This document shows, piece by piece, positions 9,481 through 59,641 of a stretch of 64,000 nucleotides of DNA. The DNA is from Escherichia phage vB_EcoS_VAH1. The stretch lies in the sequence record MK373792.1; one strand, 5' to 3'. The notes beneath the pieces are model-generated. The model ran no database searches. It was not told the DNA's origin and saw nothing but the letters and a program-made list of their open reading frames with translations. A program made the translations under genes and the position numbers. The stretch's first letter is position 1; each line of letters opens with the position of its first letter.

Positions 9481-9519
9481 TACTAGAGTTTTATGTACAT
9501 TAAATTCTTTTTTTCATAA

Positions 9520-11676: not shown

Positions 11677-12090
11677 TTAAACTAGTTCGACATGACCGCC
11701 ATCATAGGTACCACGTTTTATTTCATCGTGATAGTCTCCCGAAGCATTCCAATCAGCACCAAAACGAAGTTTAATGCCTAGCTCTTTACCAGCTTGTTCA
11801 AAAGCCTTTTTAACTGCCCAAAATGCTTCTAAGTCATTCCAGTCAATTTTGCCATTAATATATGGAGCAAAATCGATAGCATCCCCAGTAATATGTTTGC
11901 TTTTACTAGGATCTTTTAGAAATGAAGTACCATTAGCAATGTTCTGGGCACTTTGTGCTACTGTACGAATACCTTGCACGATTGTGAAATCGTACGGAGA
12001 TAATTCTAAAGCCCTACGAGCTACTTTTTGTAGCTCGGGCTTAACGGTAGCTAATTGTTTTTCGCTATTTTTACCAAATTTAAAACTCAT
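11677..12090 (-). CDS. lys: endolysin, zinc L-alanyl-D-glutamate peptidase (M15 family)
   Basis: 137 aa; HITGDAIDF and DGGHVE zinc-ligand motifs as in T5-type endolysin. Confidence 0.8.
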   Translation of the reverse strand: MSFKFGKNSEKQLATVKPELQKVARRALELSPYDFTIVQGIRTVAQSAQNIANGTSFLKDPSKSKHITGDAIDFAPYINGKIDWNDLEAFWAVKKAFEQAGKELGIKLRFGADWNASGDYHDEIKRGTYDGGHVELV

Positions 12091-12392
12091 ATTGACCTAC
12101 CTAAAGATCTCTGTTGTGGGGAACAGAGCTTTGCTAAATATTCCTTGAACTGTTCAGAATCGGCTGTATCTACCGGATTATCTTTCCAAGCAATACCAAT
12201 GTACCCAGCATAGATATTTTTTAGATTGAAGTATGGACAAGTGTATATGTAATTAAAAGTAACGTTTTTAAACGCAGGTATATTTAACCCCATATATTTA
12301 TTTACTCTTACACTTAAATCCGATGCGTAGTTAAAGCCCTCTAAATGACGTCTGTATAATTCAGACGTTTTATTTACCGCTTTATCGGCCAA
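12087..12392 (-). CDS. hypothetical protein
   Basis: 101-aa ORF overlapping lys start. Confidence 0.4.
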   Translation of the reverse strand: MADKAVNKTSELYRRHLEGFNYASDLSVRVNKYMGLNIPAFKNVTFNYIYTCPYFNLKNIYAGYIGIAWKDNPVDTADSEQFKEYLAKLCSPQQRSLGRSI

Positions 12393-12472: not shown

Positions 12473-12796
12473 CTACAAAACAGCATCTGCACCCGTCTGA
12501 GAGAAGAGAACCATGCTCTTTTCCCTCGCCACATTAGGGAAGTTATCTATCCTCTGGGTTTGTAAATCCTGTAAAACTGCAGACGTGGAAAAAGTCTTTA
12601 AGAATGACATCACTTCACTAGTATTACTAACAAATAAGAAAATAATGACAGCAACTAAGATAGTTAGCAGACGTTTAAGAAGCGATGCTGGGTCTTTCGC
12701 TTCTTGGAGCAGTACTGTTAATAATTGTAAGAACTTTTCCAATTTGTAACCTCCTCTAACCAGTACCATTATACTAATTTTGGAGGAAAATTTCAA
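12473..12796 (-). CDS. membrane protein (holin candidate)
   Basis: Single TM LLTILVAVIIFLFV, upstream of endolysin. Confidence 0.35.
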   Translation of the reverse strand: MKFSSKISIMVLVRGGYKLEKFLQLLTVLLQEAKDPASLLKRLLTILVAVIIFLFVSNTSEVMSFLKTFSTSAVLQDLQTQRIDNFPNVAREKSMVLFSQTGADAVL

Positions 12797-12898
12797 TGGG
12801 TTTTTAAATGTTACACTTGGAGCACAAAATTATGTCGTTGTCAAGAAGAATTTTAGATAAAAGAAAAGCCAGGGTACTTAACCCTGGCTTAAAATTAC

Positions 12899-13497
12899 TT
12901 ACTCTTCGTTGTGCTCCTCGGATTGAGGTAACTGCGTTTTATTATATTGCTCAGATCGATATTTTGCCAAGATTTCAATACGTTTATGGATTTCCTTGCT
13001 ATCTAGATAGATATTTTTGTTGTCTTTTACCATCTCGTCGATTTCATCTATTGAGAAGAACGGATAGTAGACATCTAGCATCATATCTTCTACGAACTTG
13101 TTGTAAGATTCATAGGCTTTCTTGATTTCTTGACCTTTCTCACAGAACCCACCAGAGAACGTATGTCCCATTAGCGTAGCATGTGGATGTACTACCCATC
13201 CATGACAAGATAGGAAAATTGTGCAGTAAGCAGAAGCACTAGGACCAATCAGGTGTCCTATAACTGTTCCACGGCAATTAGCAATTAAGTTAGATAACTG
13301 TGCAGCGGTATCAACATAGCCACCAGGGCCATTAATCATCAGATTAATTTCGTCGTCCTCATTTGCCTGCATAAGTACCATTGATAAATCACGGTATTCA
13401 TCCGGCGGACCAAGTTCTTCATCAAAGAAAAAGGTATACTCGTTAGATTGGCGAATGGAGTGAAACAGGTTAGTCTTTTCTTTTTTTTATTAGTCAT
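12899..13497 (-). CDS. ClpP-like serine peptidase (S14), reading frame interrupted at an A8 run
   Basis: INGPGGYVD, GPSASAYC, HPHATLMGHTFSGG resemble ClpP; ATG with AAGGA RBS at 13495-13497 is in a different frame from the domain (from 13486 down). Confidence 0.6.
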
Positions 13498-13509
13498 AGC
13501 GATCCTTGA

Positions 13510-14261
13510 TTATCCAACTAGTGGTTCTAGCTCTAAGTCACAGAAGTTATACACTTCTAGTTTAAGGTTATTGATACCATCGAATTTATTAACTAATTCG
13601 TGAGTAATATATTTTGCAGGAATACCACTTTCAGATGGATGATCTGATTTAATAGTGAACTTCTGCTCAGCGGGCACTACATTTACTAGTAAAGAATCCA
13701 TATCTAAATGGTTCGTTTCTCTGAGTAACTCTCCTTCATTGGGGAATCTCACATCTGTTATTACGGCGACATCTGGGTCGTCTTTAGCGATGGATTGCTC
13801 CAGAATTATGAGCCAAATGCGTTCATGTACCAGCTGCCTTCCTAGCTCTGTTCCTACGAGCTGTAACATTTTTCTCGGAGAAATAAATAAACTATAGAGT
13901 CCGTCTTCTTTATTCTCTGAGATAAGTTGTTGAGGATTAAGATATTTTTCCTCAAAAATCGGCCAAACGTACGAGAAGTCTTCAAACTTATCGATACCGT
14001 ATTTAAACCATACGTCTCTAGCTCGCTCCAATTGAGATTGTGTGACCGTAAACCATTGGTCAATCTCTTTCCCCTGCGCTCTCCTAGAAACTCTGGAGTT
14101 ACACCGAGGATTACGGATGCAAGTTCATAAACGGGCTTAGCAAAACTGTAACGACGGGGTAAACGCGTTGGATACGTGTCATTACACCAATCGATAATTA
14201 ATTTTGCAACAGTGTCTTTTCCAGAACCAGCCTCACCATGCAGACCTACTAATACTGACAT
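13510..14261 (-). CDS. deoxynucleoside monophosphate kinase, split into two overlapping frames
   Basis: N-part (track 13854..14261) has Walker A GEAGSGKDT; C-part (track 13510..14031) has ITDVRFPNE and SDHPSESGIP as in T4 gp1. Confidence 0.6.
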
Positions 14262-14614
14262 TAATCTTTCCTATTGTTAATGGGTGGATAGTAAACTAAG
14301 CAACGTTTTTCTTGTAAATCTTGGCGATAGAAGCAAACCATACTAGTCAGTCGTGAGATATATGAATATTCTGCCTCGCGGCATTTTGCTAACATATTCC
14401 AATCTTTATATGGTACAACAACTACTACGCCATCTTCGCCATTTGTAGCTAATTTCTTTTCGAATTTGAAATCAAAGCTACAAGGCTGAAGTCCTTTAGG
14501 CCAATCCACATGGGCTGTTGGTAGCTCATGTGTAGGTTCTGGCTTTATTTCTTGTGCACAGCCTGTGATTGTGATTGTGGCTGCGAGCAGTATTCCAAGT
14601 TTTATTTTGTGCAT
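14261..14614 (-). CDS. lipoprotein (lipobox ITGC), Pro-rich after the Cys
   Basis: MHKIKLGILLAATITITGC signal; possible o-spanin or exclusion lipoprotein. Confidence 0.55.
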   Translation of the reverse strand: MHKIKLGILLAATITITGCAQEIKPEPTHELPTAHVDWPKGLQPCSFDFKFEKKLATNGEDGVVVVVPYKDWNMLAKCREAEYSYISRLTSMVCFYRQDLQEKRCLVYYPPINNRKD

Positions 14615-14689
14615 CTACGCACCTCATAATGTGTTTCTATGTATTGTTCCACTTCTACTGGAGAAACATTGAAAAACTCTGTACTTCCA

Positions 14690-15301
14690 CTAAAACCCCA
14701 CATAACTGCATCTTTTATTTTTATAGATACTATGTAGGTCAGCTTCGATCTTAGCTGTTTCTTCCTTAGAACCCTTGCCACAAATATAGTAAGATGATAC
14801 TCTCAGGTCTTTAAAACCACTACAAGACTTAACTTCTAGAAGTCTTTTCTGCACATTCTTACTTATACCTATTTTTATGCCCTTATCGGAAACAAATATG
14901 TATAAAAATCCTTGTGTATCCCAAGCTGTTTTGGCACAATTTGGGCACCCACTATGGTGTAAAACGTGGTTAGTGGTTGTTTCCCACTGATGGGAACATG
15001 TATTACATAAAAACTTTAGCTTAGAAGTAGAATTAGTATATTCACTTAGTAATACGATTTTTCTAGGACTGAGGAGTGAGTTAATCCTGTCTTTGGTTAA
15101 CTTTTCATTGCCTGCACATTTTGGGCATCCTCTACCTTTATTTCTGACATTTGTAGGGGCTGTTAACCATGTATTAGAGCATATAAGACACTTAAATTGT
15201 GTCTTTGTCTTATTATGTTCATATTCCCCAACTAATCTTACTGTCCTACCTTGAGCTTCTAAGTCTTTATTAAAGATTTCTTTATTTATTTTTACGCTCA
15301 T
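14690..15301 (-). CDS. zinc-ribbon repeat + T5orf172 (GIY-YIG-like) protein
   Basis: Two CxxC...GCPxC ribbons then YIFVSDKGIKIGIS; same architecture as 46060..46731. Confidence 0.6.
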   Translation of the reverse strand: MSVKINKEIFNKDLEAQGRTVRLVGEYEHNKTKTQFKCLICSNTWLTAPTNVRNKGRGCPKCAGNEKLTKDRINSLLSPRKIVLLSEYTNSTSKLKFLCNTCSHQWETTTNHVLHHSGCPNCAKTAWDTQGFLYIFVSDKGIKIGISKNVQKRLLEVKSCSGFKDLRVSSYYICGKGSKEETAKIEADLHSIYKNKRCSYVGF

Positions 15302-15707
15302 CCCTACAGTACTCCAAGCTACCAGAAAGACATGCTAATCTTTCCTCGAACTCCTTACTCTGCTTTTTAGCAATTAATGTAACCAATCCAGGCTTTGCAG
15401 CTATAATATCTTGACGACTAAGTGCTTTATCAAGCTGGGAGATCTTCTTATCAAGATCTTGTTGAGAAATATTATGGAAAGTGAAATATTGATTCATACG
15501 TGTTTCACGTTGTTCACTTTCAACTTTAATCTTGTTTAAGGAGGTTTCTAGAGTAGAGATCTTATTAGTTGCTGCCGCGAGATCCCCTGCTAAAGTTTCC
15601 ACCTTATTTACTAGGTGATAAGCACCGAATCCGATGCCTATCGCCAAACCAGCTCCCAGGATATACCATTTACCTTGCCATAGAGAACTAATAAAGTTTT
15701 TTATCAT
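15282..15707 (-). CDS. N-terminal TM + coiled-coil protein (i-spanin-like)
   Basis: TM WYILGAGLAIGIGFGAY then heptad-rich region. Confidence 0.4.
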   Translation of the reverse strand: MIKNFISSLWQGKWYILGAGLAIGIGFGAYHLVNKVETLAGDLAAATNKISTLETSLNKIKVESEQRETRMNQYFTFHNISQQDLDKKISQLDKALSRQDIIAAKPGLVTLIAKKQSKEFEERLACLSGSLEYCRDERKNK

Positions 15708-22278: not shown

Positions 22279-22515
22279 AATTGAAAACTCGCAGGGTTAG
22301 CGAAACCATCCTCAATTAGCATGTTCTATAATACTAATCAAGTTATCTCCTATTGCACGCAGCTCAAGACGAGTACGAATTTTCAATTGTGGCGGCTCTC
22401 AGAAACTCTTCTATTCTAGCCTCAGAAGCTTACCCCCGAACGCATGTCGGGAAAGTCTTTCCAAGCGCATCAAATAGCACCGTTACACTTTGAGCCATTG
22501 ATGTATCAAGGAATA

Positions 22516-58477: not shown

Positions 58478-59303
58478 ATGACCAATGTAAAAGAATTTAT
58501 TAAACGCTGTCAAGAAGCATATTATCAAGGTATGTCTTTAATCTCTGATGAGGAATATGATTGCCTAGTAAAACGCTTCCCGTTAGAGGAAGAGATCGGG
58601 CCTAAGGGTGATATTCCACATCTGTATCGTATGTATTCTTTACAGAAAGTTTACTATAACCGTGGAGATAAACCACCATTCAATCCTTTAGGTCAGGTGG
58701 AAACCGATAAGTTAGATGGTTGTGCAATTTCTCTGCTATATATTTAATGGCGAATTTGTTCAAGCACTAACTCGTGGTAATGGTATTCTGGGGAATGATG
58801 TCACAAGCAACGTAAGATTGCTGAACATCCCTAAAAAGATTTCCCAAAAAGTACCTACTCAAATCACTGGTGAAGTTCTAATTACAAAAGAAGTAGAAAA
58901 TAAACGTAACTTTGCCTCTGGTGCTATTAACCTCAAAGATAGTGATGCTTTTGTACAACGTATCGGGGAAGGTGGTTTAATCTTCGTTGCATACGGTATC
59001 CAGTGTTCTGCTGAATCTGTAGGTATTACAGAAGCGTATTTAAAAGATATGCTTTGGCTAGAGAATGAGAACTTCTTAACAGTTGTTATGTGCGTTCCTC
59101 CTTTAAAATGGATTCCGACGGACGGTAAAGTTGTTCGTATTAATGACAACAACAAATTCTTCCGGGAAGGCTGGACTAATAAATTCCCTCGTGGGGCATT
59201 CGCTATTAAAGAGGATGAAGAAGGCGAGATTACAACTCTTACTAAAGTTGAATGGCAGGTAGGGGCTTCTGGTAAAGTTCCAGTTGGTTATTTCGAACCG
59301 TAA
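58478..59303 (+). CDS. lig: NAD-dependent DNA ligase, adenylation part, internally frameshifted (track ORFs 58478..58747 and 58716..59303)
   Basis: KLDG adenylation lysine in first ORF; TRGNGILGNDVTSN and onward in second ORF; junction at CTATATATTTAATGG. Confidence 0.75.
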
Positions 59304-59309
59304 TAATTG

Positions 59310-59453
59310 ATTGATGCCACAATTGTTAAAGCGACTCTTAATAACGTTGATTATATTAACTCTCTCGATCTAGAGATCGGTTGCCAGATTCGAGTGATTC
59401 GTGCTGGTGGTGTAATCCCGTGCATAGTAGAGCGAGTATACGATTATACATAA
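59310..59453 (+). pseudogene. ligase OB-fold remnant, in frame after tandem TAA TAA stops
   Basis: [44 protein letters not shown] matches the LigA OB domain (ATLHN...RAGDVIP) but has no conventional start. Confidence 0.5.
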
Positions 59454-59641
59454 CCCTTTGCTACCCATCTACCGTATCGGAATTATGGTTATTGACATTT
59501 CGCCGCTTAGGTATATATACTATTATCATTCAGTTGAGGGATAGAAAGTTATGGCGAGGGTAAGCAAAGTTAGTTAAAATTGTAGTTGCTAAATGCTTAA
59601 ATACTTGCTATAATATTTATATAAATTGATAAGGAAGAAAT

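What the first reader, a model, noticed from the sequence alone, without database searches (positions are those of the whole stretch)
13379..13500. ClpP-like protease gene with start codon and catalytic domain in different frames across a dnaX-type slippery A-run
The only RBS-preceded ATG (AAGGATCGCT-ATG, ~13495-13497, right after the upstream gene's stop) opens a frame that terminates after 52 codons, while the ClpP-like domain (INGPGGYVD, GPSASAY, HPHATLMGHTFSGG) is open in the -1 frame beginning within the run ATG ACT AAT AAA AAA AAG. A_AAA_AAG is the E. coli dnaX -1 frameshift heptamer. This is either a homopolymer indel or programmed/transcriptional slippage controlling protease production.
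Basis: seen in the sequence. Interest (0 to 1): 0.65.

Follow-up and report, generated by a model that had tools for sequence, protein, structure and literature searches.

The report
One-base deletion in T5 Clp-like gene
The split Clp-like protease gene is an ordinary phage T5 gene that has lost one G in this sequence only, probably through a sequencing error because several neighbouring conserved genes are broken the same way, and it is not a programmed frameshift.

Summary
On the minus strand, an ATG with a ribosome-binding site (13497-13495) opens a 52-codon frame. The ClpP-like domain lies in the -1 frame, and A_AAA_AAG (13486-13480) sits in the 0 frame inside an A8 run.

The window is a T5-like phage (Tequintavirus) and the gene is the orthologue of T5.042. 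Every relative examined has one continuous 600-nt ORF that reads ATG ACT AAT AAA AAA GAA GAA AAG. The window lacks the first G, so the deletion itself creates the A8 run and the dnaX-like heptamer.

- None of about 437 GenBank relatives matches the window allele exactly.
- The allele has no exact match in IMG/VR, JGI metagenomes or GTDB genomes.
- Epseptimavirus relatives have no slippery motif at this site.
- There is no downstream stimulatory structure and no Rfam frameshift element.

The window also has private frame-breaking indels in the phosphatase, holin, dNMP kinase, a homing endonuclease and ligA (about ten indels in 0.8 kb around its 3' part). Its ratio of private indels to private substitutions is four times that of T5, BF23 or HASG4.

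Most likely this is a sequence or assembly error. Less likely it is a recent private mutation, which would be slightly leaky. It is not a selected recoding site, and interest is low.

The parts
12899..13497 (-). Clp-like protease gene (orthologue of T5.042, 'ATP-dependent protease'). It is 599 nt here against 600 nt in relatives, and is frameshifted at codon 6.
   Evidence: It is 97-99% identical to the single 600-nt ORF of T5, BF23, 8sent1748, ESCO30, HASG4 and IMG/VR contigs, with one gap. The repaired protein matches Pfam CLP_protease (33.6 bits, cutoff 20.2) and PHROG 1827 (E 1e-89).
13503..13507 (-). Shine-Dalgarno-like AAGGA, the gene's normal ribosome-binding site, 5 nt upstream of the ATG and 16 nt upstream of the heptamer.
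   Evidence: Read from the sequence. It is identical in all Tequintavirus relatives aligned.
13495..13497 (-). Authentic start codon ATG of the Clp-like gene.
   Evidence: The same ATG is the annotated start in T5, BF23, 8sent1748, ESCO30, HASG4, SSP1, GreteKellenberger and beppo.
13481..13488 (-). A8 run created by loss of a G. The missing G would lie between 13483 and 13482. Relatives read AAAAAAGAAG.
   Evidence: Alignments A1 and A3. In a 24-sequence gene alignment the gap is one of only two window-private columns.
13480..13486 (-). A_AAA_AAG heptamer in the 0 frame. It is a by-product of the deletion, not a conserved element.
   Evidence: It is absent from every relative.
13339..13497 (-). 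52-codon out-of-frame ORF that results from the deletion (MTNKKKKRLTCF...).
   Evidence: No gene with this product is on record in the assembly collection.
12899..13486 (-). The -1 frame carrying residues 7-199 of the Clp-like protein. The first ATG/GTG/TTG in this frame is at 13381, which would give a 160-aa N-terminally truncated ORF.
   Evidence: The Ser in GPSASAY and the His in LMGH align with IGQAASAG and MIHQ of a solved ClpP chain.
12866..12890 (-). Rho-independent terminator downstream of the Clp-like gene.
   Evidence: It matches the terminators annotated in T5, BF23 and HASG4.

Best explanation
The gene is the ordinary, conserved early-region Clp-like protease gene of T5-like phages (T5.042). 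In this record one base, the G of AAA AAA GAA GAA AAG, is missing. The loss splits the ORF at codon 6 and by accident produces an A8 run containing A_AAA_AAG. The missing base is most likely a sequencing or assembly error, because the same record carries a cluster of similar private frame-breaking indels in neighbouring conserved genes. In the real phage the gene would then be read normally from its ATG as one 199-codon ORF with no recoding. Shown here: the deletion, its privacy to this window, the lack of conservation of the motif, and the excess of private indels. Inferred: that the deletion is an artefact rather than a real mutation.
For: 1. Every relative examined has a continuous 600-nt ORF reading MTNKKEEKTNLF.
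2. A 121-nt query across the site matched 437 GenBank phage records, with a best identity of 99.2%. All 30 listed hits span 122 nt, so they differ by a single gap, and there was no 100% match.
3. An exact 32-nt search for the A8 allele found 0 hits in IMG/VR, JGI metagenomes and GTDB genomes. The G allele was found in 19 IMG/VR contigs.
4. The 52-aa and 160-aa ORF products are not on record in the assembly collection.
5. Other private frame-breaking indels in conserved genes of the same window:
   - phosphatase T5.035 at 9508, A6 to A7 right after its ATG;
   - holin at 12481;
   - dNMP kinase at 14071, G5 to G4;
   - T5orf172 endonuclease at about 14700;
   - ligA at 58745, plus about nine more indels between 59089 and 59516, with in-frame TAA TAA.
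6. In 18 kb alignable in all four genomes, the window has 10 private indel events (9 not a multiple of 3) against 2-3 in T5, HASG4 and BF23, with similar numbers of private substitutions (229 against 174-274). The ratio is 0.044 against 0.009-0.011.
7. Downstream of the break the Clp frame shows no decay. There is one window-private substitution in 600 nt, at a third codon position.
Against: No reads are available, so a real mutation cannot be excluded. Loss of a single G between two A runs is not the classic homopolymer-length error, although window 243 shows the same pattern (AAATAA becomes AAAAA). The Clp-like gene may be dispensable, so a real null or leaky allele in one isolate is possible. 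The source record of the window was not identified, so its sequencing platform is unknown.
Confidence: 0.77

Rival explanations
1. The deletion is a real, recent, private mutation in this phage isolate. The Clp-like gene is then a frameshift mutant whose expression is reduced but not abolished. Occasional -1 ribosomal slippage of tRNA-Lys on A_AAA_AAG, or RNA polymerase adding an A on the A8 run, would give full-length MTNKKKEKTN... protein, the wild-type length with E6K. This would be an accidental leaky frameshift, not a selected signal.
For: The heptamer is in the correct register and a -1 slip restores the exact reading frame. A_AA.A_AA.G is among the shiftiest motifs in E. coli, but gives only about 0.3% without stimulators and up to about 3.7% in the best 3' context (PMC4066793). 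One-base deletions near a start codon were rescued at 25-60% by -1 slippage at C-AAA-AAA in an over-expression vector (PMC1851650). The site is indel-prone in nature: phage SSP1 has an in-frame 3-nt loss there. No decay is visible downstream, which fits a recent event.
Against: The same record also has frame-breaking indels in the holin, dNMP kinase, ligase, phosphatase and an endonuclease. A viable phage carrying all of these as real mutations is unlikely. The phosphatase and ligA breaks are +1 insertions that a -1 slip could not rescue. The allele is seen nowhere else.
Confidence: 0.2
2. The site is a selected, programmed dnaX-type -1 frameshift (or programmed transcriptional slippage) that controls how much Clp-like protease is made.
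For: The only support is an in-register A_AAA_AAG and a Shine-Dalgarno-like AAGGA upstream.
Against: The motif and the two-frame layout are absent from all relatives, which encode the protein in one frame. Epseptimavirus relatives read AAT AAG AAA GAA GAA AAG, with no slippery heptamer. There is no downstream structure: MFE -6.4 kcal/mol, z = +0.44, and 131 of 200 shuffles fold at least as well. No Rfam frameshift element matched. The AAGGA is the gene's own ribosome-binding site and lies 16 nt from the heptamer, compared with about 10 nt in dnaX (from memory). The 0-frame product would be a 52-aa out-of-frame peptide that is not recorded anywhere.
Confidence: 0.02

Closest known systems
Phage T5 gene T5.042 (YP_006870.1, 'ATP-dependent protease' / putative Clp protease) and its orthologues in BF23 (clp, WLW40654.1), HASG4, 8sent1748 and ESCO30
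   Same: The gene has the same position between dnk and the terminator/holin promoter. It has the same start codon and ribosome-binding site and is 97-99% identical at the nucleotide level. It falls in the same PHROG, 1827.
   Different: The window copy lacks one G at codon 6, so the ORF is split. It has only one other private difference, a third-position substitution.
E. coli dnaX programmed -1 frameshift site (A_AAA_AAG with an upstream Shine-Dalgarno and a downstream stem-loop)
   Same: The heptamer is identical and in the 0 frame. The host is the same kind, with the same single tRNA-Lys(UUU) decoding logic (from general knowledge and PMC4066793).
   Different: The site is not conserved, has no downstream stem-loop and has no internal Shine-Dalgarno at the dnaX spacing. 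In dnaX the slip gives a shorter alternative product from an intact gene. Here a slip would only repair a deletion.
Adventitious rescue of one-base deletions by -1 slippage at A-rich attB1 in pDEST17 (PMC1851650), and the 'saviour indel' correction discussed in PMC5009743
   Same: A one-base deletion close to the start codon lies next to an AAA-AAA(G) slippery run. Slippage there would restore the frame and give full-length protein.
   Different: In that system the rescue was measured in an over-expression vector. Here neither the deletion nor any rescue is shown to be real.
Bacterial ClpP (MEROPS S14, Pfam PF00574)
   Same: The Pfam hit is above the gathering score. The Ser in GPSASAY and the His in LMGH align with the corresponding ClpP motifs.
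   Different: The relationship is distant: E 1e-5 to the best solved ClpP chain, and only residues 41-138 match the profile. The function, the partner ATPase and the oligomeric state in T5-like phages were not examined here.

Membership tests
dnaX-type programmed -1 ribosomal frameshift site | X_XXY_YYZ slippery heptamer in register with the 0 frame | tested here: met
   A_AAA_AAG at 13486-13480 (-) is in register with the ATG frame.
dnaX-type programmed -1 ribosomal frameshift site | The heptamer and the two-frame gene layout are conserved among homologues | tested here: not met
   All relatives have a single ORF with AAAAAAGAAG. Epseptimavirus has AATAAGAAAGAAG. There was no 100% match among 437 records.
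dnaX-type programmed -1 ribosomal frameshift site | Stimulatory stem-loop or pseudoknot a few nucleotides downstream | tested here: not met
   The 71 nt downstream fold at -6.4 kcal/mol, z = +0.44 against shuffles. There was no Rfam match.
dnaX-type programmed -1 ribosomal frameshift site | Internal Shine-Dalgarno about 10 nt upstream of the heptamer | tested here: inconclusive
   The only Shine-Dalgarno-like element is the gene's own AAGGA, 16 nt upstream. The spacing rule is recalled from the literature and was not tested here.
dnaX-type programmed -1 ribosomal frameshift site | Measured frameshifting that yields two products | not testable with these tools
   This needs a reporter assay or proteomics.
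ClpP / peptidase S14 (Pfam PF00574) | Match to the family profile above the curated threshold | tested here: met
   CLP_protease scored 33.6 bits against a cutoff of 20.2, E 4.6e-8, over residues 41-138 of the repaired protein.
ClpP / peptidase S14 (Pfam PF00574) | Catalytic Ser and His present at the aligned positions | tested here: met
   GPSASAY aligns with GQAASAG, and LMGH aligns with MIHQ, of chain 3q7h_A. The Asp of the triad was not assessed.
ClpP / peptidase S14 (Pfam PF00574) | Tetradecameric barrel working with a Clp ATPase | not tested
   No structure prediction or partner analysis was done, because it does not bear on the frameshift question.
T5.042 orthologous group (PHROG 1827) | Full-length similarity and conserved synteny (dnk, clp, terminator, holin, endolysin) | tested here: met
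   PHROG 1827 matched at E 9.6e-90 over residues 1-198. The gene order is identical in T5, BF23, 8sent1748, ESCO30 and HASG4.
Sequencing or assembly indel artefact | The indel is private to this record while close relatives agree with one another | tested here: met
Sequencing or assembly indel artefact | The same record has an excess of other private frame-breaking indels in conserved genes | tested here: met
   The phosphatase, holin, dnk, endonuclease and ligA are all broken. The private indel to substitution ratio is 0.044 against 0.009-0.011 in three relatives.
Sequencing or assembly indel artefact | Read-level evidence that the base is present in the DNA | not testable with these tools
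   No reads are available and the source record was not identified.

The most novel reading that the evidence does not exclude
The G deletion is real. By creating A_AAA_AAG inside an A8 run, it is partly self-correcting: ribosomal -1 slippage or RNA polymerase stuttering restores a low level of full-length Clp-like protease carrying E6K. That would be a natural example of a newly arisen 'saviour' slippery site in a phage gene.
Probability: 0.12. Interest if true: 0.3.

Novelty: not a real feature. Interest (0 to 1): 0.07.

Why it matters
It matters mainly as a caution. A textbook dnaX heptamer in the right register, just after a good start codon, looks like recoding, yet comparison with relatives shows that the heptamer is produced by the indel itself. 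The finding also marks this sequence as unreliable for indels in two stretches, about 12.4-14.7 kb and 58.7-59.5 kb. Other apparent frameshifts or split genes in this window should not be read as biology without read-level support. If the deletion were real, it would be a small example of leaky frameshift suppression, which is already well documented in E. coli.

Tried and rejected
1. Programmed -1 frameshifting was rejected. The site is not conserved, has no downstream structure and has no Rfam element.
2. I looked for the same allele elsewhere. Exact-pattern scans of IMG/VR, JGI metagenomes and GTDB genomes all found nothing. The positive control with the G allele found 19 IMG/VR contigs.
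3. I tried to identify the source record or independent assemblies through exact protein look-ups of the 52-aa ORF, the 160-aa ORF and the 203-aa endonuclease ORF. None is on record. The closest complete genomes are only about 95% identical over 24 kb, so no near-identical genome was available.
4. Long-standing pseudogene decay was rejected. There is only one private substitution in the gene, at a third codon position.
5. The ORF-based scan for broken genes was noisy because it included antisense ORFs that are not genes. I used it only for genes annotated in relatives. It misses breaks near the N-terminus, including those in Clp and the phosphatase.
6. The first run of the comparison script failed on a file-name assumption and was repeated.

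Full report
**What is in the sequence**

All of the following is on the minus strand.
- The upstream gene ends with TAA at 13512-13510.
- AAGGA lies at 13507-13503 and ATG at 13497-13495.
- The sequence continues ACT AAT, then eight A (13488-13481), then G (13480).
- The ATG frame stops after 52 codons (ORF 13339-13497).
- The frame containing INGPGGYVD, GPSASAY and HPHATLMGHTFSGG is the -1 frame. It is open from 13486 to the stop at 12899-12901.
- A_AAA_AAG (13486-13480) is in register with the ATG frame. A -1 slip there would give MTNKKK-EKTNLF...

The heptamer string itself is not unusual. AAAAAAG occurs 14 times in the window, below the roughly 30 expected from shuffles. The A8/T8 run is the longest homopolymer in the window.

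**What the region is**

The window is a T5-like phage of the genus Tequintavirus. A 1.5-kb query around the site matches 444 GenBank phage records at up to 98.4% identity. In T5, BF23, 8sent1748, ESCO30 and HASG4 the gene order is i/o-spanins, dnk, Clp-like protease, terminator, holin, endolysin. In each of them the Clp-like gene (T5.042) is one continuous 600-nt ORF of 199 codons.

The repaired window protein matches Pfam CLP_protease above its curated threshold (33.6 bits against 20.2). It also matches PHROG 1827, 'ATP-dependent protease', at E 1e-89. Its Ser (GPSASAY) and His (LMGH) align with IGQAASAG and MIHQ of a solved ClpP chain.

**The frameshift is a private one-base deletion that creates the slippery run**

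Relatives read ATG ACT AAT AAA AAA GAA GAA AAG ACT (MTNKKEEKT). The window reads ATG ACT AAT AAA AAA -AA GAA AAG, so the first G is missing (alignment A1). The A8 run and the dnaX-like heptamer therefore exist only because of the deletion.

In a 24-sequence alignment of the whole gene, the only window-private columns are this gap and one third-position substitution.

Searches for the window allele elsewhere:
- A 121-nt query across the site matched 437 GenBank phage records. The best identity was 99.2%, and all 30 listed hits span 122 nt, meaning identical apart from the gap. No record matched at 100%.
- An exact 32-nt search for the A8 allele found nothing in IMG/VR, JGI metagenomes or GTDB genomes.
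- The G allele was found in 19 IMG/VR contigs.
- The 52-aa and 160-aa ORF products are not on record in the assembly collection.

More distant relatives show that the protein N-terminus is conserved but a slippery site is not. Epseptimavirus phages read AAT AAG AAA GAA GAA AAG. Phage SSP1 has an in-frame 3-nt loss that gives MTNKKEKT.

**No recoding signals**

The 71 nt downstream of the heptamer fold no better than shuffled sequence: -6.4 kcal/mol, z = +0.44, and 131 of 200 shuffles fold at least as well. No Rfam family, including frameshift elements, matched even at E up to 10. The only Shine-Dalgarno-like element is the gene's own ribosome-binding site, 16 nt upstream of the heptamer.

**The record has many other private frame-breaking indels**

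Against T5, HASG4 and BF23, the window has 10 isolated private indels whose length is not a multiple of 3. Each comparator has 2-4. Five of the window's ten break conserved annotated genes:
- **Ser/Thr phosphatase T5.035:** at 9508 the start reads ATG AAA AAA AGA ATT TAA instead of ATG AAA AAA GAA TTT AAT.
- **Holin:** a one-base deletion at 12481.
- **Clp-like protease:** the deletion at 13483 discussed above.
- **dNMP kinase:** G5 becomes G4 at 14071.
- **ligA:** a one-base insertion at 58745.

A sixth break lies at about 14700 in a T5orf172/MUG113 endonuclease gene. The gene is 699 nt in phage Shivani, and the eight best-matching records are all one base shorter than the window over this stretch.

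The 3' part of ligA and the spacer after it carry about nine more private indels within 0.8 kb, including an in-frame TAA TAA. The three comparators agree with one another at these positions.

In the 18 kb that aligns cleanly in all four genomes, the window has 10 private indel events against 2-3 in each comparator. The numbers of private substitutions are similar (229 against 174-274). The indel to substitution ratio is therefore 0.044 against 0.009-0.011.

Most of these indels change the length of short homopolymers. Two, at window 243 and at the Clp site, delete a single different base lying between two A runs.

Four consecutive genes (holin, Clp, dnk, endonuclease) are broken within 2.3 kb. 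It is unlikely that a viable phage carries broken holin, dNMP kinase and ligase genes at once. This last point is an inference from the roles of those genes and was not tested.

**Interpretation**

| Explanation | Confidence |
|---|---|
| Sequencing or assembly error in a record with two low-quality stretches (12.4-14.7 kb and 58.7-59.5 kb) | about 0.77 |
| Real, recent, private mutation that is slightly leaky | about 0.20 |
| Selected programmed frameshift | about 0.02 |

If the first explanation holds, the real gene is read normally and nothing unusual happens at this site.

If the mutation is real, either slippage on A_AAA_AAG or RNA polymerase stuttering on A8 would restore the frame. Published measurements put A_AA.A_AA.G without stimulators at about 0.3%, rising to about 3.7% in the best context (PMC4066793). 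One-base deletions near a start codon were rescued at 25-60% at C-AAA-AAA in an over-expression vector (PMC1851650).

A selected programmed frameshift is contradicted by the comparison with relatives.

**Comparison with known systems and verdict**

The gene is a member of the known T5.042 / PHROG 1827 Clp-like group. The site shares the heptamer with dnaX, but it fails the conservation and stimulator criteria for a programmed site.

The finding is not a real feature in the sense proposed, and interest is low. It is useful chiefly as a flag on the indel quality of this sequence.

Noticed in passing
window 14055-14076 (dnk; deletion at about 14071): The neighbouring dNMP kinase gene (orthologue of T5.043) is also split, by a private G5 to G4 deletion. 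The site lies 5-10 nt from the GCGC motif that T5 annotates as a 'major DNA single-chain interruption' (T5 22336-22337). A nick in the virion DNA could lower read quality at this point.
   Followed up: partly
window 12473-12796 and 12087-12392 (holin; deletion at about 12481): The holin gene (orthologue of T5.041, 657 nt in relatives) is split into two ORFs by a private A5 to A4 deletion on the + strand.
   Followed up: partly
window 9507-9514 (-): The Ser/Thr phosphatase gene (orthologue of T5.035) has a private extra A right after its start codon. It reads ATG AAA AAA AGA ATT TAA against ATG AAA AAA GAA TTT AAT in T5, BF23 and HASG4. This is a second place where an indel creates AAAAAAG in an A run next to an ATG, but here a +1 shift, not a -1 shift, would be needed to restore the frame.
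   Followed up: partly
window 58745-59520: ligA and the spacer after it carry about ten window-private indels in 0.8 kb: +1, -1, +1, -3, -1/+1, -1, -5, -1, +2. They include an in-frame TAA TAA. T5, HASG4 and BF23 agree with one another at these positions. This looks like a low-quality stretch of sequence.
   Followed up: partly
window 14548-15707 (-): A gene for a CapR / treble-clef zinc finger / T5orf172-MUG113 endonuclease-like protein lies between the i-spanin and o-spanin genes, which overlap directly in T5. The same arrangement is present in Shivani, SHSML-45, LmqsSP1 and H8. In the window its last roughly 29 codons are out of frame because of a private indel near 14700.
   Followed up: partly
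L016, L018, L023 (IMG/VR contigs), Clp-like gene: Three IMG/VR relatives show two stop codons when the 600-nt Clp-like gene is translated. This suggests an earlier stop, that is, a slightly shorter acidic C-terminal tail. I did not examine it further.
   Followed up: no
T5 52707 (T5.097), corresponding to window about 44850: T5 itself has a private one-base insertion (GG to GGG) in the small gene T5.097, relative to the window, HASG4 and BF23. Those genomes have longer ORFs there (198-243 nt against 159 nt in T5). Either the reference T5 gene is truncated or its record has an error.
   Followed up: no
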